Positions 8,791-63,683 of a DNA stretch of 64,000 nucleotides are shown here, one piece after another. Within the stretch, counting starts at the first letter, position 1; every line of letters starts with the position of its first letter. This stretch comes from a virus. The DNA is taken from IMG/VR virus record IMGVR_UViG_3300016665_000370, positions 29,978 to 93,977 of that record; one strand, given 5' to 3'. Under the pieces are notes generated by a model, which saw nothing but the letters and a program-made list of their open reading frames with translations, was not told the DNA's origin and ran no database searches. The position numbers and the translations under genes were made by a program.

Positions 8791-10085
8791 TATTTTCTCC
8801 TATCAATTACATTACCTACTAATTTACCAAATGCAGAGTTTTTCTGTGCTATTTGGTTTTTAATTTTCTGAGCAGCAGAAACATTCTCTTCTTTTCCAAT
8901 ATCAAAAGAAAGATTTAATGATCGCTTTTCTTCTTTCTCTTTTACTTTTTGCATTTGTAGATTTACTTCTTTCTTTAAAGAATTTAATCTTGATTCTGGA
9001 AGGCTTAGTCCAGAAAAGAAAGAATAAACTTTTACTACATCTTCTTTTGATTCTGTTGTATATATTCCTTTAAAGATTCCAGTAGGATTTGAACATTGTT
9101 CATTAATCATTGCCATAGCATAATTTACGCTAGATGAAGGAATTTTATCCATTACGGATTTATTTCCTGCAATAATAACTCCAACATATTTTGCATCTTT
9201 AATATCAAAACCTTCTGCTAACATATTTGTTGTAAGATTAGAGATAACAGCTTCTGCAATTGCAGTTGGCTGCTCATAATCTTTTACAGAAAATTCTCCA
9301 TAGATAGATAGACCTTCTCCATCGGTTAAGATCCTTGCCCATTCTGTAGGATCAAGAGGTTTAACGCTAGAAGGCATACTGGATAGAGTATTAAATACAT
9401 CTACTGTATTTGCAATAGTTTTATTTGCTTCTGTAAAGAAATTTAATTGACTTACATCACTTAGTAAAACTTCTATCTTTGCATTATCTACAACAATAAG
9501 ATTAGAAATCTTTTTATTTTGAAGAAGTTTTGTTAACTTTGATATTGTTTCCAATGAATTAGATTTTGTTTGAACATCATCTGATTCCATAGGAAGAACA
9601 GTCATTACAATTAATGGCTTTTCTTGTTCTAGTAAACAATCAACAAGAGTTAATGCTGATCCAGCTCCAGAACCTCCTCCTAAGCTAAAACAAAGAATAT
9701 TTATTTGAGAACTATCTAGTTTTGATAATAGAACTTTTATATTTTCTTTGTTTACTTCTGCTGCTTCTGATCCTATTGATAAATCTTTTGCTGCTCCACC
9801 TAAACCATAATTTAAAAGAAGTTTATTATCTTCTGGCAAATCAATAAATTTAAGATCTTGAGGAGCAGTATTCATGCAAACTGCATTGTATCCAAGCTTG
9901 TAAAAAGATTCTACTATTTTTGATCCTGCTTGACCTGATCCAACAAATCCTAATTTAATAGACTTTTCTTTCTTTGTTTTATCAAGTTTAGATTTAAGCA
10001 TATTTAGTTTTTCAATATCTATTGCGGAATCTAAATCATTTAATATAGTTTCTTTTGGTTTTTCTTCTACTGAATTCTTAATCAT
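8790..10085 (-). CDS. Tubulin/FtsZ-superfamily GTPase
   Basis: GFVGSGQAGSKI, NTAPQDL, GLGGAAKD, signature LGGGSGAG, VLP, IVVDN, T7-like LDPTEW. Confidence 0.92.
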   Translation of the reverse strand: MIKNSVEEKPKETILNDLDSAIDIEKLNMLKSKLDKTKKEKSIKLGFVGSGQAGSKIVESFYKLGYNAVCMNTAPQDLKFIDLPEDNKLLLNYGLGGAAKDLSIGSEAAEVNKENIKVLLSKLDSSQINILCFSLGGGSGAGSALTLVDCLLEQEKPLIVMTVLPMESDDVQTKSNSLETISKLTKLLQNKKISNLIVVDNAKIEVLLSDVSQLNFFTEANKTIANTVDVFNTLSSMPSSVKPLDPTEWARILTDGEGLSIYGEFSVKDYEQPTAIAEAVISNLTTNMLAEGFDIKDAKYVGVIIAGNKSVMDKIPSSSVNYAMAMINEQCSNPTGIFKGIYTTESKEDVVKVYSFFSGLSLPESRLNSLKKEVNLQMQKVKEKEEKRSLNLSFDIGKEENVSAAQKIKNQIAQKNSAFGKLVGNVIDRRK

Positions 10086-10954
10086 TTAAACCACCATTTG
10101 TTATTTAAATACCATTGAGCGAATGACGTAAGACCTGAACTTAAATTAAATTCAGGTTGCCAACCAATACTTTTTAGTTTTGAATTATCAAGAATAATTT
10201 TATTTGTATTGTTGGACTGCACAACCAAGTCTTTTACTTCTAATATTTTTTCCAATTCAGTCAATACATCATGAAAAGAATGAGCATCTCCAGATAAATT
10301 AAATACTTCATTTGTTAGATTAGAGTCTATAATTTGAACTATTCCGTTTACCGCATCAGCTACGTATCCATAATTTGAGATTTTATTTTCTGTTTGAAAA
10401 TATTTTTGATTAGAAGTGAAACATTGAAAAGCTTTTAGCAATTCTGAGTTTTTGCTCTGCCTTGGTCCAAAATAATTAGATACTCTAATTATGTTATAGT
10501 TTATTTTATTTATTTTACAATAATCTTTTACTAAATTTTCACACAAAAGTTTAGATATTCCTTCTGATGAACTTGGATTTAAAGTTGAATTCTCATTTAA
10601 GAATGAATTTGATTGTCCATAAACTTCATCAGAAGAAATATAAATAAACTTTTTATTTTTAGATCTTTCTAGTAATTTTGTTGTTATTTCTAAATTTTTA
10701 GAAAGATTAGAATCAAATGCTCCATGAATGATAATATCAGGATTATCTGATAAAAATATAATATTTAGCAAATGATCATCAGAGCAATTACCAATATAAA
10801 AAGAATGATTTTTGTTTTGATAAACATTGCTTAATATATTGTTTGAAATAGAATCAATACTAGATATATTGTAATCTAATTTTTGAAAAATAGACTTTCT
10901 TATAAAATTAGAAAATAAGAAGCCACAAGATCCAGTAATAAATATTTTTTTCAT
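10082..10954 (-). CDS. NAD-dependent epimerase/dehydratase (RmlB-like SDR) with degenerate motifs
   Basis: IFITGSCGF, YISSDEVYG, RVSNYFGPRQ, YVADAVNG, LDNSKLKSIGWQP, WYLNNKWW. Confidence 0.85.
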   Translation of the reverse strand: MKKIFITGSCGFLFSNFIRKSIFQKLDYNISSIDSISNNILSNVYQNKNHSFYIGNCSDDHLLNIIFLSDNPDIIIHGAFDSNLSKNLEITTKLLERSKNKKFIYISSDEVYGQSNSFLNENSTLNPSSSEGISKLLCENLVKDYCKINKINYNIIRVSNYFGPRQSKNSELLKAFQCFTSNQKYFQTENKISNYGYVADAVNGIVQIIDSNLTNEVFNLSGDAHSFHDVLTELEKILEVKDLVVQSNNTNKIILDNSKLKSIGWQPEFNLSSGLTSFAQWYLNNKWWFK

Positions 10955-11778
10955 TTGTTTAAATATAAATTGTATTTTGAATTTGTCATATACTTTATTT
11001 TATCAGTATGATAAGTTTTTCCCCATTTGTTTAATAAATTATAAACATTATGATTCATAAACATTTTATTTACAGGATTCTTTTTTAAAGAAGCACTTTC
11101 TTCATGAAATATTTTTGTAGATCCACAATAAATAACTTTTTTATTTTGTTTATATTTTACACTTAAGCAAGCATCTACATCATCAAATGCCCAAATGAAA
11201 GATTCATCCATACCTTTATTTCCAGATTTATTTGTATGGATATTTTCATAACATTCTTTTCTTATCATAAGAACTGCTCCTGTAACAACTTGAAATTCTC
11301 TATCATAAGAAAAATCTTTTGAATCTTTTTGCCTTAAACCAAAATGAATAGGCATTCGCAATTGTTCATTAAATACAACTCCTCCATGTTGAATTAAATC
11401 AGTATCTTTAAATAATAATTTACATCCAACAATTCCTACATCTTTATTTTTAAAATAAGACATCATTTTTATTAGATCATCTTTTTGTTTAAAAACAATA
11501 TCATTATTTAAAAGCAAAATTAAATCTCCATCTTTTGGTTTGGAGATATTAAATAAATAATTCATTCCTTGAGAGAAATTATCATTATTATGAGGATACT
11601 TTATTAAGTTAATATTTTTATCATTCCAAGATTCTATTAATTCAATAGATCCATCTGTAGAATTATTATCTTTTATATGCCAAAGATAATCAAAGTTTTT
11701 ATTTAATTCATTAAATGAATGATAAAGTTCATTCATTTTATCTTTGCCATTCCAATTTAAAGTAAATATATGTATCAT
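10951..11778 (-). CDS. Glycosyltransferase family 2
   Basis: LNWNG, DNNSTDGS, LLLNND, QHGG, VTGAVLMIR, DDVDACL, HEESAS. Start reassigned to ATG 11778, just after the upstream stop. Confidence 0.9.
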   Translation of the reverse strand: MIHIFTLNWNGKDKMNELYHSFNELNKNFDYLWHIKDNNSTDGSIELIESWNDKNINLIKYPHNNDNFSQGMNYLFNISKPKDGDLILLLNNDIVFKQKDDLIKMMSYFKNKDVGIVGCKLLFKDTDLIQHGGVVFNEQLRMPIHFGLRQKDSKDFSYDREFQVVTGAVLMIRKECYENIHTNKSGNKGMDESFIWAFDDVDACLSVKYKQNKKVIYCGSTKIFHEESASLKKNPVNKMFMNHNVYNLLNKWGKTYHTDKIKYMTNSKYNLYLNK

Positions 11779-11779
11779 G

Positions 11780-12733
11780 TTAAAAAGATAATCCAAAGTT
11801 AATTCCAAAATCTATATTTTTATTAAAATAGATCCCAGTGCCCAATCCAATATAACTATTTTGGAAATATTTGCTAATAGTTTTTAAATTAAAAAATACA
11901 GGTACAATAACTACTTTATAATCTTGAAAGTTTGTTCCTATTCCAAAATTTAATAAAGCATAAGTTGGATTATTTCTAAATTGACCATATTGTATAAAAT
12001 TTGCATAAACATTTAAAGAATTATTAAATCCATTTGTTCCATAATTGGTAGAAGCTGCTAAAAATAGTTTTGGATAAAAATGAAATTTACTTTCTGGTAA
12101 AGATTGAATTGTTTCTGATTTATCCAATAGAATTTCATAATCTTTATTATTTGAATTAATTGTAAATTTATTATAAACTATTGTATTATTATCTTTATCT
12201 TTTGCAATTACATTTGTTATTTTATAATCTCTTTTATAAACTTCATATTCCCAAGGATTATTTCTCCAATAAGAAAATCCAACTTTTGAAGTTGGAATTG
12301 TTTGATTTATAAATTGCTCTCCAATTGTAATATATTGAGTTTCTTTTTTTAATTCTTCTGGCTTAACTTCTACTTTATCATTTGGTTTAGGAATTGAAAC
12401 TTGAGTTGGAATATTTGTTTGATTTTGATAATAAGAAACAACTTGAACTTTATTTAAAGATTCAACTTTCCCATCAAGAGATTTTAAATCTTTTTCAATT
12501 TTAGATAAATCTACTTTTGATTCTTTTATTAATTTATCTAGATCTTCTTTGGATACGCTAGAGCTTGAAGATCTTAATATATTATCTCCAATTTGTTTTT
12601 GTTTTATTTCTAGATTTTGTATATAACTTAATTGTTTTTTATTTTCATTGCATGATTGAATTGAAAAGATAGCAAACAATAAAATTAAAAATACATTAAT
12701 TGCTAAAATAATATTTATTTTTTTATCATTCAT
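11780..12733 (-). CDS. Envelope protein: N-terminal TM/lipoprotein-like anchor, coiled coil, C-terminal amphipathic beta strands
   Basis: IILAINVFLILLFAIFSIQSC; ends IDFGINFGLSF. Start reassigned to ATG 12733 (ATGA overlap, AGAGG upstream). Confidence 0.7.
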   Translation of the reverse strand: MNDKKINIILAINVFLILLFAIFSIQSCNENKKQLSYIQNLEIKQKQIGDNILRSSSSSVSKEDLDKLIKESKVDLSKIEKDLKSLDGKVESLNKVQVVSYYQNQTNIPTQVSIPKPNDKVEVKPEELKKETQYITIGEQFINQTIPTSKVGFSYWRNNPWEYEVYKRDYKITNVIAKDKDNNTIVYNKFTINSNNKDYEILLDKSETIQSLPESKFHFYPKLFLAASTNYGTNGFNNSLNVYANFIQYGQFRNNPTYALLNFGIGTNFQDYKVVIVPVFFNLKTISKYFQNSYIGLGTGIYFNKNIDFGINFGLSF

Positions 12734-13542
12734 AAAACCTCTTGCAATGGAGAAATAAAAGAGCAAGTTTTATCTGGATGTCTTAAAGAATATAAAACTT
12801 TGTTTCCTTCTATATCTTTTTCTTTAAAGAATATTTGAAGCTTATCAGAAAAATTACCTTTTATTTTTTTACCATCAAATTCTTGATCATAACATCCATT
12901 GTTTTTGTAAGATTCTATAGATAATTCTCTTGCAGCATCGCAAATCTTTTTAAAATTAGCTCTTGAAATATCTCTACCAATAGACTGAGGATGAATTCTT
13001 GCTTTAAAGAATAGCTCAGATTTTAAATAAGGTCCAACCGAACAAAATCCATCTCTTCCTTGAATTAATCTACCTATTGGAGCAACTTTCTTTATATGTT
13101 TATATAATGTTTCAAATTTCTCTTCATAATCTTCTGTAATTGAATCCCAAACCATTAAATTCATTTCTCTTTGGAATTCTTCTTTATTTAAAACTAAAAC
13201 AACTCCATAGTGCAAAGAATCAAGAAAGTATAATGTATCGTCCTCAGAAATTATTTTTAAACAATTATTTGTTTCAATTTTAGATTCTTTTGTATCAAAG
13301 AATCCAGAATTTCTTTGTTCAAATAATATATATTTATCTTTTGATATTTGAATATATGTTTTTTTACCTTTTGATCCAACATCAATAAAATGCATTTCAT
13401 CGGGAAGATTATCAAATCCATTTCTGTATCTTGATCTTGGATATGTATATATATATTTTATTCTTTTGCCAAGAAATTTCTCTTTAATTAAATTTGCAAT
13501 TACTTTTACTTCTGGTCCTTCTGATGGAAATAATTGATCCAT
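12730..13542 (-). CDS. Fpg/Nei-family DNA glycosylase homologue with atypical N terminus
   Basis: SEGPEV, VGSKGK, YFLD...G, H2TH-like VGPYLKSELFFKARIHP. No Cys4 zinc finger. Confidence 0.82.
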   Translation of the reverse strand: MDQLFPSEGPEVKVIANLIKEKFLGKRIKYIYTYPRSRYRNGFDNLPDEMHFIDVGSKGKKTYIQISKDKYILFEQRNSGFFDTKESKIETNNCLKIISEDDTLYFLDSLHYGVVLVLNKEEFQREMNLMVWDSITEDYEEKFETLYKHIKKVAPIGRLIQGRDGFCSVGPYLKSELFFKARIHPQSIGRDISRANFKKICDAARELSIESYKNNGCYDQEFDGKKIKGNFSDKLQIFFKEKDIEGNKVLYSLRHPDKTCSFISPLQEVL

Positions 13543-14183
13543 TTATCCTCAAATTTCTGTTTAGATTCTAAATATAATTTATATGTATTTAATTGTTTTG
13601 ATGTTTGTTTTCCAAAATGAAATACAGGAACATCTTGAATAATAAAATTAATATTCTTTTCTTTTATTCTAAATCCAAGATCTGTATCTTCAAAATATGC
13701 AAAGAATCTTTCATCAAAGAAAGTTTTTTCTTTAATTGATTCCCAATTTTTTCTAGAACTGCAAATGCACCAGCCGGACATGTAGATGTAAGGATAGCTT
13801 TCTATTTTAGAACTTTCCTTGATAAAGTTAAACTTTGAATCTAGGTATCCTACGGTCGGTCCAACGAATCCTTTGTCAGCGAATTCTATAAGTTTATCTG
13901 TCCAATTTTCCTTGTTTGCATTTACTCTGATATCATTGTTCAGCGTAATTAAAATATCAGAATTTGAATTCTCAAATCCTATATTTACAGCTTTTCCAAA
14001 TCCATAGTTATTATCTAGCTTAATATATTTTACATTAAATTCTTTTACAATAGATTCAGTATTGTCTGAACTATTATTGTCTACAACAATAATTTCATGA
14101 TCTTTTAAATGAGATAAATCTTGCAAACAAGATTTTGTAAAATGTGATTTGTTAAATACAGGAATTGTAATACTTGCTTTCAT
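13506..14183 (-). CDS. Glycosyltransferase family 2
   Basis: SITIPVFN, IIVVDNNSSD, NYGFGKAVN, LNND, FDERFFAYFEDTDL. Confidence 0.92.
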   Translation of the reverse strand: MKASITIPVFNKSHFTKSCLQDLSHLKDHEIIVVDNNSSDNTESIVKEFNVKYIKLDNNYGFGKAVNIGFENSNSDILITLNNDIRVNANKENWTDKLIEFADKGFVGPTVGYLDSKFNFIKESSKIESYPYIYMSGWCICSSRKNWESIKEKTFFDERFFAYFEDTDLGFRIKEKNINFIIQDVPVFHFGKQTSKQLNTYKLYLESKQKFEDKWINYFHQKDQK

Positions 14184-15307
14184 TTAATTAAACTTTCTAT
14201 ATCTTTAAATATTTTTGACCAAGAATATCTTTCTATTATTGGATTAAAATCTATTTTTGACAAAATAGAATTATAATTACTATAAGCATTTCTTAATTTT
14301 TCTACAGCATCATTTACATCGGGTTCAAATACATATGTATTTTGTTTTTGTTGCCAATATAACATTTTTGGATTTGCTCGAATCATTTTTCCATTGATTA
14401 ATAATGAATTTGAATCATTACAAAAATCTAATTGACCACCATAATTAGAACATATTAATAATTTTTTACTTACTAATGTCTCTAATGCTGGCATTAAAAA
14501 TGATTCTGCATTTGACATACTAAAAATTACATGACAAGATCTATAAAAATCAGAAATATCTTCTATAAATTTATCAATTACTATGATTTCTGCATGATTT
14601 TTATATTTTATTTTAAAGTCTTTTAATAATTGATTAAAGTTTACTTCAAATGGCTGATTTGTAATTTTTGTACTAACTTTAAATACTAAACATACATCAT
14701 CTTTATTTGTAAATGCTTTTCCCCATGATTCTAATATTCCTGGTATATTTTTTCTTAAATGAGGTTGAGCTATATTTGCTCCAAATATAAACTTATTTGA
14801 AATATTTAATTTTTCTTTTCTATTTATAAAAGATTCTGAATATCCATGAGGAATTACAGTAATTTTATTTTCAGGAATATTGGAATCAATAAAAACTTCT
14901 TTTGCATTATTTGATGGAGCAAGAATCTTATCTACAAATAAATGATTCTTTGCAAATCCTTCTGGCAAGGCATTCTTTCCAGCAAACTCATAACACCAAA
15001 TTCCAAATCTATTTCTAGATCCTCTAGAAAAGTAATTTGGGAAATTAGACATTGCTGTATAACTTAATTGTACATCATAATTTTTTAATAACTTACTTGT
15101 GCATTCAATGTATTCATGTTTTGTCATTTTTGAACTTGAAAAATAACCTTTTAGATTTTCTTTCAAATCTTCTGGAAAATGATCAATTCCATTTGTAGAA
15201 AATAAATCAATATCATAATTATTATTTTTAAATTCTCTTGATAATGATTGAGCTACAATGCTCCATGAATGTAAAGATCCTAAAAAACCTTGCCATAAAA
15301 CTTTCAT
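14180..15307 (-). CDS. Glycosyltransferase family 4 (GT-B fold)
   Basis: ILAPS, VIPHG, RKNIPGIL, ESFLMPALE (EX7E), NYGGQLDF, YSW. Confidence 0.9.
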   Translation of the reverse strand: MKVLWQGFLGSLHSWSIVAQSLSREFKNNNYDIDLFSTNGIDHFPEDLKENLKGYFSSSKMTKHEYIECTSKLLKNYDVQLSYTAMSNFPNYFSRGSRNRFGIWCYEFAGKNALPEGFAKNHLFVDKILAPSNNAKEVFIDSNIPENKITVIPHGYSESFINRKEKLNISNKFIFGANIAQPHLRKNIPGILESWGKAFTNKDDVCLVFKVSTKITNQPFEVNFNQLLKDFKIKYKNHAEIIVIDKFIEDISDFYRSCHVIFSMSNAESFLMPALETLVSKKLLICSNYGGQLDFCNDSNSLLINGKMIRANPKMLYWQQKQNTYVFEPDVNDAVEKLRNAYSNYNSILSKIDFNPIIERYSWSKIFKDIESLIK

Positions 15308-40840: not shown

Positions 40841-41706
40841 TATTCCTTAACTTCTCTTTTAAATGAATTGGATATTATATTTGTGTTATATGTATCTCCA
40901 TTTTTAATAGCATCCATTGTTGGTGAAAAATATGGATTTTTATGAAATGGAAAGTAATTTGTCCTATATCCTCTTTCTTGTGTTACTATAAATGAAATAT
41001 TATATTGGAAATTAAAATTCTCTGCTCTTTCTTGAACATTAAAAGATTCAAAATATCCTCTAAAAACAGATCCTCCATAATACATCTCTACTGTAAATGC
41101 ATATTGAGCTAATGATGGATTTACTCTTGGCATAATGGTTTCATTTTGACTTAATGCAGAACCTATTCCAGACCCAATAGCCGAACCAAGTTCTCCTCCA
41201 ATTATTCCTCCAAGTCCTCCAAATGCACCTTCTATTGCTTGCGTTGCTAAATTTTCTGCATTATTATTCGCAGCTTCTACTTTTAATGCAGCTCCATCTA
41301 TTGCATATTGTTCTGCTCTATAAATTTCTTTTAATAAATTAATACCTTCAATTCCAGAACTTCCTGTAGAACCTTCTATCCTTAAAGTAAGAAGATCTTC
41401 TCCTAAATACTGTAAAGAATATCCTCCCTTTGTTCGCTCTTTTGAAATAATCTTTCTATAATCATAACTAATTGAATTTGGATTTACATACATATTAATT
41501 ACGCCAAATTCGGGAACAAACCATTTTATAATATTTCTATTTAGTTTACCAGTATATAAATCTCTTCGCTTTGATGTTGGCAAACCATTTCCATCTGCTG
41601 GAATGTTTGATGGCAAAGAAAAACCATTTTTATTTGGATCTTCTGGTGTATTTGTTCTTAACAAATCACTAGCTGCACCTTTGATTTTATCAAAAATATC
41701 TACCAT
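40840..41706 (-). CDS. Putative tail tube initiator / baseplate tube-like protein
   Basis: MYVNPNSI...RTKGGY...GEDL...IEGSTG...FRGYFESFNVQE...YNISF; located between tape measure and hub. Confidence 0.7.
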   Translation of the reverse strand: MVDIFDKIKGAASDLLRTNTPEDPNKNGFSLPSNIPADGNGLPTSKRRDLYTGKLNRNIIKWFVPEFGVINMYVNPNSISYDYRKIISKERTKGGYSLQYLGEDLLTLRIEGSTGSSGIEGINLLKEIYRAEQYAIDGAALKVEAANNNAENLATQAIEGAFGGLGGIIGGELGSAIGSGIGSALSQNETIMPRVNPSLAQYAFTVEMYYGGSVFRGYFESFNVQERAENFNFQYNISFIVTQERGYRTNYFPFHKNPYFSPTMDAIKNGDTYNTNIISNSFKREVKE

Positions 41707-51063: not shown

Positions 51064-51065
51064 AT

Positions 51066-53925: not shown

Positions 53926-54708
53926 TTAAAACAATTCAGAAAGAATTTGATCTGTAGTTATTGTTAGATTATAAGCTGGACTTGCAGTTGATTGAGACAA
54001 GTCATCAAATTCTACTATAAAGTTTATAATTTCAAGAAATGTATTGATTGGGATTGAGCGATGCCATTCAAATCGGGTTGGTATAGTCAAAGTGTATCTA
54101 AATAATTTATCATTTCTATCTTCTTGAGCAGAAGATCCGCCTATGCTAATAGGTTTAATTAACAAGCCAGCTTCTTGTAATTGATCGAAATATATTTCGG
54201 TTAAGCACATAGCACATAATTCTGCTAAGTCATCTGCTGCTCTTAAAGATCTAGCATATATATCTATGTTTAAATTTCCATCCCAAACTCCATCTGTATT
54301 AAAGAATTCGGGTCTTGTAACTTCTGTTTGGTTTCCATATCCATCTTCATAGATATATTTTTTGTATTGAATTGTTCCTTGATTTCTATTAAAAGAAATA
54401 GGAGAATAATTAGCTCCAGAAAATTTAACAATAATAGCAGGATAAAATATTACATCAAATCTATAATTTTCTCCTATAAATAATCTTGTAGTAAGATCAT
54501 TATCAACTCCAGATCCTAAAGAAAGACCAGTATGATCTGGAGTTTTGGGAAAGCCCCATGGATCTTGCACATATCTATAAAATGTATCTTTGCTGAAAAA
54601 ATCTTTTAATGTTGCAATCACTATTTCTTTAGGATAAACAATCATACTAGATTGTACTAGATGATGCAATGTTTGCAAATCGCTACGATAATGATTGTTT
54701 GTTGCCAT
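53926..54708 (-). CDS. Putative tail terminator / neck protein
   Basis: Immediately upstream of the sheath gene; YPAIIVK...LNIDIYARS...DDLAE pattern. Confidence 0.6.
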   Translation of the reverse strand: MATNNHYRSDLQTLHHLVQSSMIVYPKEIVIATLKDFFSKDTFYRYVQDPWGFPKTPDHTGLSLGSGVDNDLTTRLFIGENYRFDVIFYPAIIVKFSGANYSPISFNRNQGTIQYKKYIYEDGYGNQTEVTRPEFFNTDGVWDGNLNIDIYARSLRAADDLAELCAMCLTEIYFDQLQEAGLLIKPISIGGSSAQEDRNDKLFRYTLTIPTRFEWHRSIPINTFLEIINFIVEFDDLSQSTASPAYNLTITTDQILSELF

Positions 54709-54723: not shown

Positions 54724-57700
54724 TTACCATTTATATTTTAATAAAATAGGAGATATTAACATATTAAGCGTTCCAGAACTTACTTGATAATTTAATCTAA
54801 CTGCCAATATTATTGGAGTCCCATTATTTATTACAAAATTATTAGATGTTAAATCAGAGCTATCTATCTCTATTGTAATGCTGGCTCCTAAAACGGCGCC
54901 ATTATATTCCGCTCCTAAAACACTATCTGTTAAAGTTGTTCCAATATATGGATCGTCTGTTAATATTGTTGGTATAGCTACAGAAGAAACATTAATATTA
55001 AGCTCTTGATTTGAAAATGTTGTAGATAATTTTGTGCAATTTATTGAAAATAAACTTAGAAGATTTAATGTCCCAGTTTCTTTTCTAATATTCATTTTAC
55101 AACCAATTATTTTTACATTTGTTGGTAAATGATTATTTAAATTCCATTGCTTTGAATACCATTTTTCATTTGTATCAGCAGTACTTAATACCGTTATTAA
55201 TGATTCAATATCTAACTGATTTGTTTGTAATGGTACTAATGTTACGGTACTATCATTAGATATGTTTTTTATTGTAGATGCTGAATTGTATTCTACTTTT
55301 TCTGTATTTAAACTAAAATTAGCATATTCTACTTGATTGATATTTTGATTTACAATCCAATTTTCAGGAAAATTTGCTTTTAATAAATTATCTACAGTTC
55401 CATCTATTGTAGAATTATCAAAAGAATTATTAGTTACTATTCCAGTGGTGCTTGAGCCAGCATCTCCTGTTAAAAAGTTATTATATTTTATATAAGAAGA
55501 AATAGAAGCTGATCTTGATATTATATTATTTGTTATTCTACATAAATTAGCTCCAACTGTAACTAAATCTAATGTAGATCCATCTGCTGAATAGCAAGTA
55601 TTAGATTCTATGTTTGCTCTAGCATCTGATCTTATATATCCAGAAGGACTATATGATACTGGAGTTCCTAAAGAGTTTACCCAACCACTTCTAAAAATAT
55701 TATTATTTGATATTGTTACATTGCCTTCTCCAAATAATCCAGGAACAGCTAAACTATTTACAGCTATTGAGTATGCTGTTAAATTATTTAATGTAGAAGT
55801 AAAAGTAGAATTAACAAAAGGAGTAAACATTGCATAACTATTATCATAAGCTGGTAAATTGTTATTACTTATAATTTTTGTAGATAATGTTGATACAGAA
55901 TATACATGAATAAAACTTGCATTATTTTTTTCTATTTTTGTAGATGGATTTACTAAACTAGTTCTATTTGTCCCATCATCTGCACCAACTACAAATGTTC
56001 TTCCATATCCATCAGATGTTCTTATATATTTACAATTATTTCTGCTTATATCTAAATCAAATTCTGAAGAATTATTTGCAGTAAATGCTAATGGCTCAGA
56101 AACAGCATTTGATTCTTTTACGCCAACAGAAGCAAAATATCCTATTGATCCACAAATATTTCCATTTATTTCTACGCTTATTGGAACTAAGTTTAAATAA
56201 ATCTTATCATCTGAATGTATTGCAGGAGCAAATATTATGTTTTGATGACTATTTGCATAATTATTGTTTATCTTTGAATTTATTAAATAATTATAAATTC
56301 CTGTGGTATTTGTTGTTGATGTATATCCAACAACATGAATTGCTGCATTCATATCTATATTTGTAAATCCAGTAGAATAAAATTGGTTTTCCGATATGCT
56401 TAAGCTATTTATTGAAGATCCATTATTTGATAACAAAACTCCAATAAATGAAAGTCTATCTGTTACATTGTTACAATTAAATGTATTTTTTTCAATTTTT
56501 ATATTTTTTATTTGAGATGTACAAGATAATCCAACAACTCCACCTGATCTATAATTACATAAATAGTTAGAATTATAAGTTGAATCATTAGCTCCGCTAA
56601 AGCTAGTTGCAATTGTATTTCCAACTACTTCTACATTTGAACAGTTAGTTAATTCAATTGCTTTTCTAAAATCTCCAGAAAATGTACTATTGTTTATTTT
56701 ATTGTTTGATCCAGATGATGTTATGAAATTTGGTGTAGCATCTATAGATGCTGTGCAATTCAATGTACCATCTAAATTCTCAATAATACAATTACTTTGT
56801 AATGAAATTACTTTATCATTTAAATAAGTTGTTCCATCATAAGTTAGCTCTATGGTACAATCAATTAACTTAGATCCTGATAAAAATATAAAATAGCCAG
56901 ATGATGATAATGAATCATATAATCCATTTATTGTGCAATTTATTAGTTGACAATTATTTATAAAAAACAAATTTGGAACACTTGATTCAAAATTTATTGT
57001 CATGTTTTTTAACACAACATTATTTATTGAAAACTTAGAATTATTTGTAAATGTTAATGTTGCATCATTTTCTCCATCTATTTCTATTAATGAAGTAGAT
57101 GTTAATGTAAATACAGATCCATCATCAAAAGTTTCGTCTGCTCCTTTTATAGATGCTTTTGAATGATAAGACTTAGATAAATTCATCCAAGTAAATAATG
57201 ATTTTACAGATCTAAAGTTTCCAAATTCTTTATCAGAAGTATATTTTAATACTAATCCATCAGAACTATAAGAAAACTTTCTAGCATCTTTAGGAGTCAA
57301 TACTACTGTAAATGGAGCAGATGATCCTGATATGGAAGAACTTACTGTATATAATAACAATAAATCTTTTCTATTTAATAATGTATTTATATTTAAAGCT
57401 TCTATTTTATAAGAACTTCCTGTTGCTGGATCTATTGCTGTAAATCTTCTTGATACAACAACATTTCCTGTAGATGAAACATCTAATATAGGATAAGTTA
57501 CATATTCATTTTTATCATTAATACAAAGAGCCCAAAGTATATTGTAATTTGTTGATAAATACAATTCTTTTAATATTGGAATTTCTATTGTATCTGCGTT
57601 CATTAATACGAACTTACCATTAACAACAGCAATTCCTCCATTTAGATAAATTTGATTATTTGCTGGATTAGGTGCATATCCATCTAAATCAAATCCTTGA

Positions 57701-60540
57701 ACAACTCCATTTGTATGTAAGTATCTTTCTCCTGCACTAACAAAATCTAATGCTGATTTTGTTAATTCATTCTCACTTACATTACCAAATTCTCTTTTAT
57801 CTGCTAAGTTTTCAAATCTATTTGTTGATTGATTTAATGTGCATGATCCTAACAAAAATACTTCTTGATCTAATTCAAGACTTGAATATAATTGAATGTC
57901 TAAAATGTTATTTGTAAATGTTGATAATGAATGATCAACATTTAATTGCAAATCTATATAATCAATTTGAGATTCATCAAAGAATCTAGTTACTTCTCCT
58001 ACATATCCTGTAGTCAATGGACCTTGTTTAGTTACAACTCCATCATATCTACATAAATAACCAGAATACATTCCAGTTGTTTCATTGAAAGATAATATAT
58101 TAAATGCAATTTTGCTTATTTTTCCAAATTGATATCCTCTTAATTTCTTGGATACTTCAATTATATTAAAATTAGACAAATTAGATGAAGCATATAATGT
58201 TTCATTATTTACAACTAAATTAGATCCATTAATTGTAAATCTAGCTCTTTCGTGAGAGAATGTTTTTCCATTTGAATCTATATAAATTTCAAAATATCTT
58301 TTAAAAGATGCTGCTGTAAGATCATCATTTGCATTTTCTATATTAAAACCTATAGAATCATCTGAAAAATATAATCTTACTTGTGAACCAACATCTAATG
58401 TAGTTTGAGGACTTGTATTTTGTGCATGTACTGCATCATATACTGTGATTTCTGTATAAGCTGATGATGGGGAACAAACTACACAGCTAACATTTTCTAT
58501 TATAAATCTTCCAGAATCAATTGTATATCCATCTACTAATGGCTGAACAACTAATGTCTTTCCTATTTCTAGTTTAGAAGATCTAAGATCTAAATCTACT
58601 TGATAGGTAGTTTCAACTCTACCAAATGGACCTGGGAATGTATTTTTAGAAGTAACTGTACCTATCCAATAACCATCTCCATTATCATCTATTAATTGAT
58701 CTACTTCTAATCCAAAATTATCTTTTTCTGCTCCATTAACATAATAGTTATTTTTTGTTAATGGTAAAAAGACTTTTGTTGGAACAGCTTGTTCTGCTGT
58801 AGAATAGCTAGAGCTATATGGAGGGCTAGCTACATTTGCAGCAAAGATTCCAAAGCCTAATGCATCTTTTGGTTGTTGAACTTGAGCTAATGGATCTGTA
58901 TATTCAAATACATCTATTATATTATTTGGATAAGATGATTGAGTGGAAGATTGATCAAATTGACCGCTTGCATCTACAACTGCACTTACAATAGAGAATG
59001 ATGATCCTAAATATGGATCTGTCATTGCTATTCCAAATTCTCCATTGTATTCAAAAGCTGCAAATCTAATGTTTTTGCTTGATATTCTAAAAGCATCATT
59101 TGCAGATTCTATTAATGATTTTAATGTATATTTACCTGGAGTTGCTCCTTGATTTCCTGTAATATCTATTGCTGGAATAGATATTTCTCCATCTGCTGGA
59201 TTTCCATTTGGATATACTTTAAGATACAAATTGTAATGTGTACTATCAATTAAATTTGGATTAAATCCAATTCCTAATACAGAAGGAGATCTTGGATTAA
59301 TTGAAATTAAACTTGGCTTTTCTGAAAATTCATTATGTGCTTGAGCTAATGCTAAAACATGTTGCTTATTTGTATGATATTGTGGTTTAGATATTACTAC
59401 TGTAGCTGTAGTTGTATAAGCTAAATTTTTTCCTGCAATTCTTACAATAAATTTTTTAGTTCCACCAGATTGAATATATTTCTTTTCTTTTATAATAAAT
59501 TTAGTTTCTATTGAACCATAATTTACAGTAATAATATCTCCGGCTTTAACTAAACTAAATTGAGCATCAAATAAATTAGATGTAACAATTGTTCCTGTTG
59601 GTATTAGCTCAATAATATCATCGCCATTAGCAATATCATCTACTGGATTTGTTGAAGTACCATTTGTTCTTAGAAATGTAGTTGCTGTAACTTCTTCTAT
59701 TAGAATTTGACCATAACCATCATTTGTAAATGTAGATGATATTGCAGCTCTAGATATTCCATTTGAATAAAGATTTTGTACTCTTGATCCAAATAATAAT
59801 AAAGAAGATGTATCTATAAATTCTGCAAGTAATTGCAAATCATTTGTTGTTTTTGGAATAGAAATAAATCTTGTTGTATCTATATATAATCCAGCAGCAT
59901 GATGTGCAAAGTTATCTGGATAAACCAAACCATTTAATGTAGTTACATCGAGACCATCAGGACCATATCCATCTGCTCTTTGATGATTTACAAAATCAGT
60001 ATTAATATCTGATAGTAAAGTATAAAGATTTGTATTATCTCTAGCTGATTCAAATTTGTTATCTAAATAATTAGAAGTACTTGAAGAAACTAAAATTTGA
60101 TCTGTATAATGATTGTAAGAAGTACCAGCTATATGAGAAGATATTTTTGCAGAATTTAAATTAATCCAACCTAATGCTGTGTTTGAATCAATACCCAAAG
60201 AAATAATCATATTATATAGATCTTGTGTTGAATGATCTAATAATAATTTAGACTCAAGTATTGCAGCATTTGTTGCAACTTGAGTATCATCAATAGGTAA
60301 AGTAACTAATCCAAGTCCTGTTAAAGATGATGGATTTATAGTACCATCTGGATTTAAAGATACATCTAACCTATCTGATAAACTTGATAAAGAACCTGAT
60401 GCTGTAAATCCAATTTCTTCTTCTATTGCTATAACTGCTTCTTTTAATGCATTGATTGCAGTTGAACCAATTTCTGTTATGTTATCATATACAGATGGTA
60501 TTGTTGAATCATCATCTATTGAACCTGGAAAATTACTCAT
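54724..60540 (-). CDS. Large fibre/appendage protein with C-terminal right-handed beta-helix (pectin-lyase-like) region
   Basis: N-terminal SNFPGSID...INALKEAVIAIE, Asn-ladder repeats (IENNTF-type: VVGNTI, IEKNTF, ISENQF, ITNNII), GGAG RBS. Confidence 0.7.
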   Translation of the reverse strand: MSNFPGSIDDDSTIPSVYDNITEIGSTAINALKEAVIAIEEEIGFTASGSLSSLSDRLDVSLNPDGTINPSSLTGLGLVTLPIDDTQVATNAAILESKLLLDHSTQDLYNMIISLGIDSNTALGWINLNSAKISSHIAGTSYNHYTDQILVSSSTSNYLDNKFESARDNTNLYTLLSDINTDFVNHQRADGYGPDGLDVTTLNGLVYPDNFAHHAAGLYIDTTRFISIPKTTNDLQLLAEFIDTSSLLLFGSRVQNLYSNGISRAAISSTFTNDGYGQILIEEVTATTFLRTNGTSTNPVDDIANGDDIIELIPTGTIVTSNLFDAQFSLVKAGDIITVNYGSIETKFIIKEKKYIQSGGTKKFIVRIAGKNLAYTTTATVVISKPQYHTNKQHVLALAQAHNEFSEKPSLISINPRSPSVLGIGFNPNLIDSTHYNLYLKVYPNGNPADGEISIPAIDITGNQGATPGKYTLKSLIESANDAFRISSKNIRFAAFEYNGEFGIAMTDPYLGSSFSIVSAVVDASGQFDQSSTQSSYPNNIIDVFEYTDPLAQVQQPKDALGFGIFAANVASPPYSSSYSTAEQAVPTKVFLPLTKNNYYVNGAEKDNFGLEVDQLIDDNGDGYWIGTVTSKNTFPGPFGRVETTYQVDLDLRSSKLEIGKTLVVQPLVDGYTIDSGRFIIENVSCVVCSPSSAYTEITVYDAVHAQNTSPQTTLDVGSQVRLYFSDDSIGFNIENANDDLTAASFKRYFEIYIDSNGKTFSHERARFTINGSNLVVNNETLYASSNLSNFNIIEVSKKLRGYQFGKISKIAFNILSFNETTGMYSGYLCRYDGVVTKQGPLTTGYVGEVTRFFDESQIDYIDLQLNVDHSLSTFTNNILDIQLYSSLELDQEVFLLGSCTLNQSTNRFENLADKREFGNVSENELTKSALDFVSAGERYLHTNGVVQGFDLDGYAPNPANNQIYLNGGIAVVNGKFVLMNADTIEIPILKELYLSTNYNILWALCINDKNEYVTYPILDVSSTGNVVVSRRFTAIDPATGSSYKIEALNINTLLNRKDLLLLYTVSSSISGSSAPFTVVLTPKDARKFSYSSDGLVLKYTSDKEFGNFRSVKSLFTWMNLSKSYHSKASIKGADETFDDGSVFTLTSTSLIEIDGENDATLTFTNNSKFSINNVVLKNMTINFESSVPNLFFINNCQLINCTINGLYDSLSSSGYFIFLSGSKLIDCTIELTYDGTTYLNDKVISLQSNCIIENLDGTLNCTASIDATPNFITSSGSNNKINNSTFSGDFRKAIELTNCSNVEVVGNTIATSFSGANDSTYNSNYLCNYRSGGVVGLSCTSQIKNIKIEKNTFNCNNVTDRLSFIGVLLSNNGSSINSLSISENQFYSTGFTNIDMNAAIHVVGYTSTTNTTGIYNYLINSKINNNYANSHQNIIFAPAIHSDDKIYLNLVPISVEINGNICGSIGYFASVGVKESNAVSEPLAFTANNSSEFDLDISRNNCKYIRTSDGYGRTFVVGADDGTNRTSLVNPSTKIEKNNASFIHVYSVSTLSTKIISNNNLPAYDNSYAMFTPFVNSTFTSTLNNLTAYSIAVNSLAVPGLFGEGNVTISNNNIFRSGWVNSLGTPVSYSPSGYIRSDARANIESNTCYSADGSTLDLVTVGANLCRITNNIISRSASISSYIKYNNFLTGDAGSSTTGIVTNNSFDNSTIDGTVDNLLKANFPENWIVNQNINQVEYANFSLNTEKVEYNSASTIKNISNDSTVTLVPLQTNQLDIESLITVLSTADTNEKWYSKQWNLNNHLPTNVKIIGCKMNIRKETGTLNLLSLFSINCTKLSTTFSNQELNINVSSVAIPTILTDDPYIGTTLTDSVLGAEYNGAVLGASITIEIDSSDLTSNNFVINNGTPIILAVRLNYQVSSGTLNMLISPILLKYKW

Positions 60541-62110: not shown

Positions 62111-62111
62111 A

Positions 62112-63683
62112 TTATAATATGATCAAATGTGTATGACCCAAAACAGGTAATACTTCTAATTGACCAGTAGATTGATTATATTTAACTTGATGAGAATGAC
62201 CTTGAGATTGACTTGTTACTTGATTATATAATGAAATAGATTTTTCATTTATTCTAATTGTATGCTTATGAGGAATTAATCCAGTTGCAGAAGCTAATGT
62301 AGTATCTAAGTCTTGAGGAACTAATTCTGTATTTTTAAATACAGGAATTTGATAGGCAATATCTGTTTTTCTAATTCTTTGGACTCTCATTTTCTGTCCG
62401 CCAGTTTGTCTTAAAACTGTTCTTTGTCTATTTACTGATAATACTTCATATCTATATTCTTCATTATCTGCAATATCATATCTAACTAAAATATCTCTAT
62501 CTTTTATTTGAGGAACAGTTAATGTCCAAGCTTCTGTTGTAAATTCAGATTCTAATCCAGTTTCATACATCTTAATATCTTCATCAGCAGGACCAAATCT
62601 AACTAATATTCTTCCATCAGATCTTCGTGGATTAAAGAATTGATTATAAGATAAAACCATTCCTCTTCCAAAGCATTTTAAACATCTATCATCTGGATAT
62701 TCAGAAGATGGTTGAAAACATGAACATCTAATTCCTGTTGTTTGTAATGATAATAATACTACAGGATCTGCTGTTTGTTCTAACAAAACTTCTTGTCTTT
62801 GATTATTAGCATCTTGGAAAGATAATGGTCTTAATACTCTTCCTACTCCATCATATCCATCTGCACAAAATTGATATCCACCTATATAAGATCCAACACA
62901 TTCTCCAGCTAATAATTTAGAAGGATCTCTTCTTCTCCATCCTGTATATGAAAAATATGGAAAATTAATTTGCTCTTCATTTGTAGAAAGATCTGTATTT
63001 AAAATATCAAATTCATTTTGTTTAAATCCATATCCATCTCTATAAGCATAATTGGGATACTCAAATCTAGACTGGCACATCATTACTTTATCAAATGATG
63101 AATCTTGTTCTCCTATATATAATGATACATCTGGAGATAGATAATTATACCCATCATATCCATCTACTGTATGTAAAACTGGAAATGTATTTCCATAACC
63201 TCTTAATGTTGCTTGAAGATCTAAACCTGATATTCCATCATATTCAATTAATTCATATCCAATTTTAACAATGCCGCTAGCAGGAAAATTATCAATATCT
63301 TCTAAAGGTATATTTAATTGAGAATCATTAATATCTTCCCTTAATGTAGTAGAAGGAATTACTTTAAGACCATTTCCAATATCAATTAAAGTAGATAATG
63401 TACTTGTTAATGAATTGTATTCAACAGGTCTTAAATTAAAGAAATACAATTGACCAGGAATAAAATCTGTGAATGTATATTCTGTTTTAGAATCTACAGA
63501 AATATATTTAGGTAATGTTTCTAATACGTTATCTTGATCTGTATCCCAATAAATTGCATAAGCAATATCATTTGATGTAGAATTTGGATAAGCAGAATAC
63601 CATCTTAATTTTATAGAATATCCATCTCCGGTTGAATTTACATCTTGTAATCCAAACCTAGTTTTAATTAAGTATTGTGGCAT
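62112..63683 (-). CDS. Putative head-closure/neck protein with FN3-like N terminus and Zn finger
   Basis: IKLRW...YAIYW...YFFNLRPV (FN3-like), CSC...CLKCFGRG, PQIKDRDILV...RYEV, three C-terminal HxH motifs. Confidence 0.6.
   Translation of the reverse strand: MPQYLIKTRFGLQDVNSTGDGYSIKLRWYSAYPNSTSNDIAYAIYWDTDQDNVLETLPKYISVDSKTEYTFTDFIPGQLYFFNLRPVEYNSLTSTLSTLIDIGNGLKVIPSTTLREDINDSQLNIPLEDIDNFPASGIVKIGYELIEYDGISGLDLQATLRGYGNTFPVLHTVDGYDGYNYLSPDVSLYIGEQDSSFDKVMMCQSRFEYPNYAYRDGYGFKQNEFDILNTDLSTNEEQINFPYFSYTGWRRRDPSKLLAGECVGSYIGGYQFCADGYDGVGRVLRPLSFQDANNQRQEVLLEQTADPVVLLSLQTTGIRCSCFQPSSEYPDDRCLKCFGRGMVLSYNQFFNPRRSDGRILVRFGPADEDIKMYETGLESEFTTEAWTLTVPQIKDRDILVRYDIADNEEYRYEVLSVNRQRTVLRQTGGQKMRVQRIRKTDIAYQIPVFKNTELVPQDLDTTLASATGLIPHKHTIRINEKSISLYNQVTSQSQGHSHQVKYNQSTGQLEVLPVLGHTHLIIL

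What the first reader, a model, noticed from the sequence alone, without database searches (positions are those of the whole stretch)
10082..63683. Candidate new system: a DGY (Asp-Gly-Tyr) sequon across virion proteins, next to a phage glycosyltransferase cassette
SEEN: by hand count, DGY occurs 30 times in eight structural-module proteins: 15321-18512 x4, wedge x9, baseplate J x2, 31534-33723 x2, sheath x1, 53926-54708 x1, fibre 54724-60540 x6, neck 62112-63683 x5. Tandem forms include DGYTDGY (15528-15548), DGYDGY (18938-18955 and 63147-63164) and DGYDG. In these proteins about 30 of 75 DG dipeptides are followed by Tyr, whereas Tyr frequency is roughly 5%. I found none in the genes at 1-15.3 kb, and none in tape measure, tube, tube initiator, hub or spike, which are the predicted internal or injected parts. 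The Gly codon varies (GGA, GGT, GGC at 32320-32322, GGG at 63150-63152) and the flanks are unrelated, so the constraint is on the peptide and not on a DNA repeat. A GT4 gene starts 13 nt after the last baseplate gene, followed by two GT2 genes and a nucleotide-sugar SDR. KNOWN: Tyr O-glycosylation occurs on some bacterial S-layer proteins, and some phages glycosylate their own virions. INFERENCE: DGY is an acceptor sequon for phage-encoded modification that coats the particle surface. Alternatives are a docking site for a decoration protein, an Asp-Gly isomerisation or crosslinking site, or a metal-binding turn.
Basis: partly seen in the sequence, partly recalled or inferred. Interest (0 to 1): 0.92.

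Follow-up and report, generated by a model that had tools for sequence, protein, structure and literature searches.

The report
DGY tag on huge-phage tail proteins
The outer tail, baseplate, fibre and neck proteins of this uncultured phage (estimated genome about 430 kb) and its whole clade carry the exact tripeptide Asp-Gly-Tyr about ten times more often than chance, and the motif tracks one conserved phage sugar-transferase gene, so it is probably an undescribed modification tag, though no modification has been shown.

Summary
There are 30 DGY in eight structural proteins, and 30 of 75 DG are followed by Tyr (binomial p about 1e-19). There are none in the other 34 ORFs. DGY is the single outlier among all tripeptides and is encoded at the peptide level.

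The enrichment is clade-wide: observed/expected is 13 in 607,000 residues from about 150 related loci. It is exact, because DGF, NGY, EGY and DAY are not enriched. Flanking residues carry no information. The motif is position-conserved, yet it also arises in inserted outer domains.

Sites were lost together in at least six nested lineages. There, orthologous sites carry unrelated residues between preserved flanks. This argues against a fold requirement and for a trans-acting reader.

Among the cassette genes only GT4 tracks the motif. It follows the last baseplate gene in 85 of 85 readable DGY-rich loci. It is missing from that site in the one DGY-free lineage that could be read. The two GT2 genes, the SDR and the unknown gene are each dispensable.

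GT4 is a confident GT-B fold with the EX7E motif. Glycosylation itself, the modified residue and surface exposure remain untested. The GT4 link rests on one independent loss.

This scan has found the same motif before on other DNA of this clade (33 notes in at least 25 genomes).

The parts
62112..63683 (-). Neck protein, 523 aa, with 5 DGY of 8 DG. All five lie in the N-terminal FN3/beta-sandwich half. The C-terminal neck core has DGR and DGN only.
   Evidence: Model pLDDT 82.5. Foldseek matches the necks of phage 812, Pam3 and phiCD508, plus FN3 domains.
54724..60540 (-). Fibre-like protein, 1938 aa, 6 DGY of 18 DG.
   Evidence: No Pfam or PHROG family. Its role is inferred from size and position.
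53926..54708 (-). 260-aa structural-module protein, 1 DGY of 3 DG.
   Evidence: Orthologues are present in relatives.
51114..53870 (-). Tail sheath, 918 aa, 1 DGY of 7 DG.
31534..33723 (-). 729-aa baseplate-module protein, 2 DGY of 7 DG.
   Evidence: No family hit.
25483..29472 (-). Baseplate J-like protein, 1329 aa, 2 DGY of 9 DG.
   Evidence: Pfam Baseplate_J and phrog_6. Counts.
18521..25486 (-). Giant wedge protein, 2321 aa, 9 DGY of 17 DG. It has a LamG_3 domain at aa 2081-2182 that holds three of them.
   Evidence: In DGY-poor relatives the same LamG strand reads FIDGKE or FVDGRE.
15321..18512 (-). Last baseplate-module protein ('BP1063'), 4 DGY of 6 DG. It was used as the anchor for the synteny tests.
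14180..15307 (-). GT4-type GT-B glycosyltransferase, starting 13 nt after the last baseplate gene. It is the candidate reader/writer of DGY.
   Evidence: Pfam Glycos_transf_1. EX7E motif E268..E276 conserved in 52 orthologues. Model pLDDT 95.5. Foldseek top hits are retaining GT4 enzymes. Present after BP in 85 of 85 readable DGY-rich loci.
13506..14183 (-). GT2 glycosyltransferase 'GT2a'. Dispensable for the motif; possibly extends a glycan.
   Evidence: Absent genome-wide in G005, which keeps DGY.
12730..13542 (-). Fpg/Nei-like DNA glycosylase embedded in the cassette. Present only in some relatives.
11780..12766 (-). Conserved 328-aa protein of unknown family. It does not track DGY.
   Evidence: Retained in DGY-free L214 and absent from the DGY-rich distant subclade.
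10951..11808 (-). GT2 glycosyltransferase 'GT2b'. Lost together with GT2a and dispensable for the motif.
10082..10954 (-). Short-chain dehydrogenase of the nucleotide-sugar 4,6-dehydratase/epimerase type. It does not track DGY.
   Evidence: Retained in DGY-free L214 and L215.
35963..43781 (-). DGY-free control proteins of the tail module: 1625 aa, 288 aa and a 691-aa TMP_3-like protein, with 0 DGY of 9 DG.

Best explanation
DGY is a bare three-residue recognition tag on the outward-facing domains of the virion's tail, baseplate, fibre and neck proteins. A phage-encoded trans-acting factor reads it. The most likely reader is the GT4 glycosyltransferase encoded directly after the last baseplate gene, which would attach a sugar, most plausibly to the Tyr hydroxyl with the Asp as specificity determinant. 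Where present, the two GT2 enzymes and the nucleotide-sugar SDR would extend or vary the glycan. Shown here: the enrichment, its exactness, its clade-wide conservation, its recurrent gain and concerted loss, and GT4's phyletic pattern and catalytic motif. Inferred: that GT4 acts on protein, that Tyr is the acceptor, and that the product is a glycan coat.
For: (1) Enrichment: 30 DGY against 3.2 expected in the window. In 1097 proteins from related loci, observed/expected is 13.1, and the next tripeptide is at 4.8.
(2) Exactness: DGF 1.1, DGW 0.8, NGY 0.8, EGY 0.5 and DAY 0.75. A generic beta-turn preference would tolerate Asn or Phe.
(3) No flank signal: 565 non-redundant sites carry at most 0.12 bit per flanking position, and tandem spacings of 3-6 residues are common.
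(4) Conservation and gain: the five neck sites are nearly invariant at about 50% identity. Sporadic DG in inserted or variable parts is followed by Tyr in 55 of 123 cases.
(5) Confined to virion periphery: a complete 452-kb relative has 25 of 125 DG followed by Tyr in the tail module and 17 of 447 elsewhere. Within the neck protein the motif occurs only in the decoration half.
(6) Concerted loss: 11 of 56 BP representatives have zero DGY, against 2.0 expected. They fall into at least six nested lineages. Whole tail modules are near background in G057 (2 of 52) and L392 (1 of 24), and low in G056 (5 of 71). Orthologous sites become NGI, GGN or PPV with the flanks kept.
(7) Cassette dissection: GT4 follows BP in 85 of 85 readable DGY-rich loci, including lineages with only 28% identity. 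GT2a and GT2b are absent in G005, G007, G009 and G013 among others, which keep DGY. The SDR, the unknown gene and TubZ are absent at the locus in a DGY-rich subclade. In the DGY-free P0157 lineage, BP (0 of 18 DG) is followed directly by the SDR and UvsW, with the unknown gene in between in L214, and no GT4.
(8) GT4 is a high-confidence GT-B with a conserved EX7E motif.
(9) A ThyA-family hydroxymethylase candidate occurs in only 2 of 5 complete relatives. T4-style sugar modification of hydroxymethyl bases therefore cannot explain a universal GT4.
Against: No modification has been observed. The clade has no cultured member, and no mass spectrometry exists.

The GT4 link rests on one independent co-absence. 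It was seen only at the syntenic site of two fragmentary, rearranged contigs, so GT4 could sit elsewhere in those genomes.

The other five or more DGY-free lineages could not be read, and presence in 85 of 85 has no discriminating power by itself.

GT4's structural neighbours act on small molecules, lipids or sugars, not proteins. No GT-B enzyme is known to me to glycosylate Tyr.

Two relatives (G004, G040) have a split GT4 yet keep DGY. This may reflect recent decay or assembly error.

Some loci with GT4 have low DGY, for example L288 with 4 of 35.

The cassette is fused to replication genes and contains a DNA glycosylase homologue, so a DNA target is not excluded.

Surface exposure of the sites could not be computed.
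Confidence: 0.45

Rival explanations
1. DGY is a small binding site in its own right. Asp carboxylate plus Tyr ring/hydroxyl would form a weak glycan-, metal- or partner-protein-binding patch. Displayed in many copies on the virion periphery, it would serve multivalent adhesion to host surface polymers or docking of a decoration protein. GT4 would be unrelated.
For: The motif is exact, confined to outer domains, often in tandem, and gained in inserted LamG and beta-sandwich domains. Asp plus an aromatic residue is a common sugar-binding pair (general knowledge). Concerted loss could follow a host switch.
Against: A three-residue site with no flank or fold context is unlikely to form a defined pocket in so many unrelated folds. 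This reading does not predict the absence of GT4 in the DGY-free lineage. It also does not predict GT4's invariant place after the baseplate genes.
Confidence: 0.2
2. DGY is a structural idiom of this clade's beta-rich virion domains: an Asp-Gly turn followed by a Tyr that packs or hydrogen-bonds like a tyrosine corner. It would be inherited and spread by domain duplication and carry no signalling role.
For: In the neck model the sites lie at strand-turn-strand junctions. Some sites overlie generic structural DG, such as the LamG 'lyvDG' strand and Kelch 'DGxxYxxGG'. Positions are conserved. T4 structural proteins show a mild excess, 7 of 51.
Against: NGY and DGF are not enriched. Tandem DGYDGY cannot be two hairpin turns. 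Flanks carry no information and the sites are not one domain family. Several lineages lost every site at once while keeping the proteins and the flanking residues. Phage G has 2 of 32.
Confidence: 0.15
3. DGY marks a different chemistry: Asp-Gly isoaspartate/succinimide formation, a Tyr-based cross-link, or phosphorylation, sulfation or nucleotidylation of Tyr. The agent would be an enzyme encoded elsewhere, or the reaction would be spontaneous.
For: Asp-Gly is the sequence most prone to isomerisation (general knowledge). The requirement for Tyr rather than Phe points to the hydroxyl. Concerted loss fits any trans factor.
Against: No candidate enzyme was identified. Spontaneous chemistry would not explain loss in whole lineages or the link to GT4. 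NGY, which isomerises as readily, is not enriched.
Confidence: 0.1

Closest known systems
Virion glycosylation of mycobacteriophages by phage-encoded glycosyltransferases (Freeman et al. 2023, known here only as cited in PMC12619734)
   Same: Phage-encoded soluble glycosyltransferases sit beside structural genes. The proposed targets are the phage's own virion proteins, modified in the cytoplasm.
   Different: In the mycobacteriophages, glycans were shown experimentally at the C-termini of capsid and tail-tube subunits. Here nothing has been shown. The candidate sites are internal DGY tripeptides on baseplate, fibre and neck proteins, the tail-tube region has none, and the phages are unrelated huge myoviruses.
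Tyrosine O-glycosylation of bacterial S-layer proteins (Paenibacillus alvei SpaA, Thermoanaerobacter; PMC2943079)
   Same: A sugar on the Tyr hydroxyl of a surface-array protein, at several sites per protein.
   Different: S-layer glycans are built on a lipid carrier and transferred by a membrane O-oligosaccharyltransferase during secretion. No sequon is defined. Here the candidate enzyme is a soluble GT4, the substrates assemble in the cytoplasm, and the motif is an exact tripeptide.
Minimal bacterial sequons: Bacteroidota D-(S/T)-(A/I/L/V/M/T) O-glycosylation and Campylobacter D/E-x-N-x-S/T
   Same: A three-residue motif beginning with Asp, with no further context, is enriched on surface proteins.
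   Different: Those systems are periplasmic, use oligosaccharyltransferases and target Ser/Thr or Asn. DGY has Gly at the centre and Tyr as the only hydroxyl residue.
Retaining GT4 glycosyltransferases (MshA, BshA, PimA, PglA, WaaG, GlgM; PBCV-1-like virus GT 3oy2)
   Same: GT-B fold and EX7E motif.
   Different: Sequence identity is 10-16%. The known acceptors are small molecules, lipids or glycans, and none is a protein Tyr.

Membership tests
Short linear modification sequon (generic definition) | Exact short motif with no requirement in the flanking sequence | tested here: met
   Observed/expected is 13.1 for DGY against 0.5-1.1 for one-residue variants. Flanks carry at most 0.12 bit per position over 565 non-redundant sites.
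Short linear modification sequon (generic definition) | Enriched on one class of substrates and at background elsewhere in the proteome | tested here: met
   Window: 30 of 75 against 0 of 36. Complete relative G005: 25 of 125 against 17 of 447.
Short linear modification sequon (generic definition) | Sites are gained and lost independently of the fold | tested here: met
   In sporadic columns and inserted domains, 55 of 123 DG are followed by Tyr. Orthologous sites are replaced by unrelated residues with flanks kept. There are 11 zero-DGY representatives against 2.0 expected.
Short linear modification sequon (generic definition) | Presence and absence across genomes follows the modifying enzyme | tested here: inconclusive
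   GT4 is present in 85 of 85 readable DGY-rich loci. It is absent at the syntenic site in the one readable DGY-free lineage (L214, L215). That is one independent event on fragmentary contigs.
Short linear modification sequon (generic definition) | Covalent modification demonstrated at the motif | not testable with these tools
   There is no cultured member and no proteomic data.
GT4 family of retaining GT-B glycosyltransferases (window 14180-15307) | Two-Rossmann-domain GT-B fold | tested here: met
   AlphaFold model pLDDT 95.5 and pTM 0.92. Foldseek top hits are GlgM, MshA, BshA, PglA, PimA and WaaG at E 1e-15 to 1e-11.
GT4 family of retaining GT-B glycosyltransferases (window 14180-15307) | EX7E motif in the C-terminal domain | tested here: met
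   E268 is invariant and E276 is at least 90% conserved in 52 orthologues, in the context AECFxMPGLE. The motif definition comes from PMC2943079.
GT4 family of retaining GT-B glycosyltransferases (window 14180-15307) | Pfam Glycos_transf_1 above the gathering score | tested here: met
   26.5 bits against a cut-off of 26.4, so only just above it.
Mycobacteriophage-type virion glycosylation | Phage glycosyltransferase genes next to virion structural genes | tested here: met
   GT4 starts 13 nt after the last baseplate gene. This arrangement is kept in 85 loci.
Mycobacteriophage-type virion glycosylation | Acceptor sites at the C-termini of capsid and tail-tube subunits | tested here: not met
   DGY sites are internal and lie on baseplate, fibre, neck and sheath proteins. 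The tube-region ORFs have none. No capsid genes lie in this record.
S-layer-type Tyr O-glycosylation | Lipid-linked glycan transferred by a membrane O-oligosaccharyltransferase | not tested
   No such gene is among the cassette's Pfam hits. The relatives' genomes were not scanned for Wzy_C/PglL-type enzymes.
Generic Asx-Gly beta-turn / tyrosine-corner structural motif | Tolerance of Asn for Asp and of Phe/Trp for Tyr | tested here: not met
   Observed/expected is 0.77 for NGY, 1.14 for DGF and 0.76 for DGW, against 13.1 for DGY.

The most novel reading that the evidence does not exclude
A soluble phage GT4 enzyme O-glycosylates tyrosine in a context-free Asp-Gly-Tyr sequon on folded outer virion proteins. 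That would be the first defined Tyr sequon, the first Tyr-directed GT-B protein glycosyltransferase, and a glycan coat on the tails of a widespread clade of 350-480 kb phages. The two GT2 genes would act as lineage-variable glycan extenders.
Probability: 0.35. Interest if true: 0.9.

Novelty: new variant of a known kind. Interest (0 to 1): 0.78.

Why it matters
If DGY is a modification sequon, it would define a new enzyme-tag pair. A three-residue tag recognised on folded proteins in the cytoplasm is attractive for protein engineering. It would also reveal a surface chemistry shared by a large, globally distributed clade of huge phages that nobody has cultured. Finally, it would extend phage self-glycosylation from a few actinophages to jumbo myoviruses.

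Even without a known mechanism, the pattern shows a selective force that standard annotation does not see: a 13-fold excess of one tripeptide, confined to the virion periphery and lost all at once in several lineages. The hypothesis can be tested by co-expressing two genes from the sequences alone.

Tried and rejected
- **DNA-level motif:** rejected. All 34 coding-strand matches are in frame, the other strand is at chance level, and Gly codons follow usage.
- **Composition artefact of a 26% GC genome:** rejected. Markov-1 p is 4e-8, and the excess holds in relatives from 27 to 48% GC.
- **One homologous repeat domain:** rejected.
- **General property of myovirus tail proteins:** rejected. Phage G has 2 of 32 and T4 has 7 of 51.
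- **GT2a and GT2b as the responsible enzymes:** rejected. They are absent genome-wide in G005, and absent at the locus in at least seven other lineages that keep DGY.
- **SDR and the 328-aa unknown as linked genes:** rejected.
- **T4-style DNA glucosylation as the reason for a universal GT4:** weakened. The ThyA family is present in 2 of 5 complete relatives.
- **Cultured phages or cellular genomes with this GT4:** none. Hits were only 21-31% GT4 homologues, apart from two phage-like contigs (40-43% identity) filed in bacterial MAGs.
- **Other DGY-free lineages:** I tried to fetch P0182/P0186 and P0142/P0131/P0141/P0126 from IMG/VR and found only more distant relatives. The DGY-poor contigs G056, G057, L392 and L272 end before the GT4 site.
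- **P0157 lineage in genome contigs:** nothing found.
- **Papers:** Zarschler 2010 and Freeman 2023 are not held.


Full report
**What the window is.** The window is the last 64 kb of a 93,977-bp IMG/VR virus record. CheckV rates the record about 22% complete, which implies a phage of roughly 430 kb. GC is 25-31%, and almost all genes lie on the minus strand.
- From 63.7 kb down to 15.3 kb lies a contractile-tail module. It holds a neck protein (Foldseek matches the necks of phage 812, Pam3 and phiCD508), a fibre-like giant, the sheath, a TMP_3-like protein, a sheath-initiator-like protein, baseplate J, a 2321-aa wedge protein with a LamG_3 domain, and a 1063-aa last baseplate protein that I call BP.
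- GT4 starts 13 nt after BP. Overlapping reading frames then run through GT2a, an Fpg/Nei-like gene, a 328-aa unknown, GT2b, a nucleotide-sugar SDR, a TubZ/PhuZ-like tubulin, an intein-bearing UvsW-like helicase and DnaB.

- The hand count of 30 DGY in eight proteins, out of 75 DG, is right protein by protein. So are the coordinates of the tandem forms and the rare Gly codons.
- Tyr makes up 5.1% of these proteins, giving a binomial p of 1.5e-19.
- Among all tripeptides DGY is the sole strong outlier: 30 observed against 3.2 expected from per-protein composition. Against a first-order Markov expectation that already includes its own DG and GY counts, the expected value is 9.2 (p 4e-8).
- The other 34 ORFs of the window have 0 DGY among 36 DG.
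- At the DNA level all 34 coding-strand matches to GAYGGNTAY in the 94-kb record are in frame. The opposite strand has 3, the chance number, and Gly codons follow overall usage.
- Windows of 60 residues around the sites are no more similar to each other than random windows from the same proteins. The sites are therefore not copies of one repeat domain.

**The motif is a property of a large clade.**
- The neck protein has 756 homologues, many on contigs of 350-480 kb. At about 50% identity its five DGY positions are nearly invariant, and homologues average 4.9 DGY among 8 DG.
- In 78 IMG/VR loci around the neck gene, with GC from 27 to 45%, 13-54% of DG are followed by Tyr.
- I pooled 1097 distinct proteins (607,392 residues) from about 150 loci. 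DGY occurs 1613 times against 123 expected, an observed/expected ratio of 13.1. The next tripeptide reaches 4.8.
- One-residue variants are not enriched: DGF 1.14, DGW 0.76, DGH 0.63, NGY 0.77, EGY 0.49, DAY 0.75, DSY 0.88. Permutations stay between 0.9 and 2.2.
- Over 565 non-redundant sites no flanking position carries more than 0.12 bit, and spacings of 3-6 residues between sites are frequent.
- Controls: the phage G tail module has 2 of 32 and T4 structural proteins have 7 of 51.

**Where the motif sits.**
- In a complete relative of 451,956 bp with terminal repeats (G005), the tail module has 25 DGY among 125 DG. The rest of the genome has 17 among 447, with Tyr at 3.7%.
- Within the neck family every conserved DGY lies in the N-terminal FN3/beta-sandwich half. 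The C-terminal neck core has conserved DGR and DGN instead.
- Sporadic DG, mostly in domains inserted in some homologues, is followed by Tyr in 55 of 123 cases.
- In the neck model the sites lie at strand-turn-strand junctions of confidently modelled regions, except one in a low-confidence loop.
- Some sites overlie generic structural DG. The LamG strand reads LFIDGYKY here but FIDGKE and FVDGRE in DGY-poor relatives.

**Concerted loss.**
- A profile search with BP over 1.84 billion cluster representatives found only 221 relatives. Among 56 near-full-length ones, 11 have no DGY at all, against 2.0 expected if all shared one rate.
- On a tree of the conserved N-terminal 640 residues, DGY-rich proteins lie on both sides of the midpoint root. 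The DGY-free ones form at least six nested groups.
- Whole tail modules can be near background: G057 has 2 of 52 and L392 has 1 of 24. G056 is low at 5 of 71. A neighbouring lineage, G058, has 19 of 120.
- At the best-conserved BP site (xDGYxG[VI]), DGY-free homologues read NGI, GGN or PPV between preserved flanks.
- Losing every site in several proteins at once, while the proteins and local sequence persist, argues against a folding requirement. It argues for a single trans-acting reader whose loss relaxes selection on all sites.

**Which neighbouring gene tracks the motif.** The order BP-GT4-GT2a-(Fpg)-unknown-GT2b-SDR-TubZ-UvsW is kept across the main clade.
- Among 100 distinct BP loci, 85 have a GT4 match starting a median of 0.6 kb after the BP stop codon. 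They pool to 1069 DGY among 3110 DG. The per-locus minimum is 0.11 and the median is 0.34. This includes lineages whose wedge, BP and GT4 are only 28% identical to the window's (L398).
- GT2a and GT2b are lost together in G005, G007, G009, G013, L137, L138, L196 and L201, where DGY/DG is still 0.19-0.28 in the BP loci and 0.24-0.35 around the neck gene. G005 lacks them genome-wide.
- The unknown gene, the SDR and TubZ are missing at the locus in a DGY-rich distant subclade.
- The one DGY-free lineage I could read is the P0157 group. It was fetched from JGI metagenomes as L214 and L215. BP (0 of 10 and 0 of 8 DG) is followed directly by the SDR and UvsW, with the unknown gene in between in L214. 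There is no GT4 and no GT2.
- By elimination, GT4 is the only cassette gene whose presence and absence fit the motif.

**Caveats on that link.**
- This is one independent event. Both contigs are fragments, and L214 is rearranged upstream of BP, so GT4 could lie elsewhere in those genomes.
- The other DGY-free or DGY-poor lineages were either not in the collections I could scan or were cut just before the GT4 site.
- Two relatives have a split GT4 yet keep DGY.
- L288 has GT4 but only 4 DGY among 35 DG.

**What GT4 is.**
- It scores just over the Pfam Glycos_transf_1 threshold.
- With 52 orthologues it folds at pLDDT 95.5 into a GT-B enzyme. Its closest solved structures are retaining GT4 enzymes: GlgM, a chlorovirus GT, MshA, BshA, PglA, PimA and WaaG.
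- The family's EX7E motif is conserved as E268...E276 (motif as described in PMC2943079). It is therefore probably active.
- Nothing in its fold says that the acceptor is a protein.
- No cultured phage has an orthologue. The best matches are 24% identical, in Streptomyces phages. Cellular genomes hold only generic GT4s, apart from two phage-like contigs filed in bacterial MAGs.
- A ThyA-family enzyme that could make hydroxymethyl pyrimidines occurs in only 2 of 5 complete relatives. T4-style DNA glucosylation therefore cannot explain a universally kept GT4. Other DNA targets remain possible, and an Fpg/Nei homologue sits inside the cassette.

**Reading.**
- My best explanation (about 45%) is that DGY is a bare tag on the virion periphery, read by a phage factor. 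The most likely reader is GT4, adding a sugar to the Tyr hydroxyl with Asp as the determinant. The GT2 enzymes would be optional extenders.
- The rivals are a self-contained adhesion or docking patch (20%), a clade-specific structural idiom (15%) and another Tyr or Asp-Gly chemistry (10%).
- The closest known systems are mycobacteriophage virion glycosylation (cited in PMC12619734) and Tyr O-glycosylation of S-layer proteins (PMC2943079). From memory I add the Asp-initiated minimal sequons of Bacteroidota and Campylobacter.
- It differs from all of them in enzyme class, cellular compartment, acceptor residue and motif.
- Full-text searches found no paper linking DGY to phage tails, nor any on Tyr glycosylation of phage virions.

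**Relation to earlier notes of this scan.** The same motif has been reported before on other members of this clade: 33 notes in at least 25 genomes. Several of them state that the motif is lost together with a neighbouring transferase gene. I tested that claim independently here. I can confirm it for GT4 in one lineage only, and I can exclude the two GT2 genes, the SDR and the unknown gene.

Noticed in passing
window 44712-51028: Five paralogous HNH/endonuclease-VII-like genes sit between the tube region and the sheath gene. One is on the + strand and one has an internally duplicated domain. They share the motifs EPWMNWN, STWTWxIDHIIP and FKKCW, and their products have 0.6-1.7% Gly. They account for the secondary tripeptide outliers PWM, MNW, KCW, CWA and WTW.
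   Followed up: partly
window 5637-8306: The UvsW-like helicase is interrupted by an intein with a LAGLIDADG homing-endonuclease domain (Pfam Intein_splicing and LAGLIDADG_3). In G005 the helicase matches as two separate pieces.
   Followed up: no
window 8790-10085: A TubZ/PhuZ-like tubulin gene overlaps the end of the sugar cassette. It keeps that position in most of the main clade at 53-64% identity.
   Followed up: partly
window 62112-63683 (protein residues 320-337 and 472-519): The neck protein family has an invariant CxC...CxxC cluster and three invariant HxH pairs near the C-terminus. These resemble the metal-binding HxH motifs of T4 fibre and spike proteins, which I recall from memory.
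   Followed up: no
window 12730-13542: An Fpg/Nei-like DNA glycosylase homologue is embedded between the glycosyltransferase genes, with 37-nt overlaps on both sides. It is present in only about half of the relatives.
   Followed up: partly
L209:7432-8646 (G005) and G000:C1:1616-1966 (upstream of the window): A Kelch-repeat protein among DNA-metabolism genes of G005 has 4 of 4 DG followed by Tyr, including the tandem TDGYGIDGYS. A 116-aa protein upstream of the window carries the similar NDGYSGIDGYNS. These may be unrecognised virion proteins.
   Followed up: partly
G004:C1:165184-166292 and G040:C1:51728-52730: The GT4 orthologue matches as two pieces in these two relatives, from a frameshift or an assembly error. 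Their tail proteins still carry DGY at 0.29-0.50 of DG.
   Followed up: no
L136, L137, L138, L141, L164, L184, L196, L201: GT2a and GT2b are always lost together, which suggests that they work as a pair.
   Followed up: partly
L291 and L292: Contigs carrying the clade's GT4 at 40-43% identity are filed in MAGs labelled Gammaproteobacteria and Thioploca. They are probably phage contigs binned with bacterial genomes, and they give only a weak host hint.
   Followed up: no
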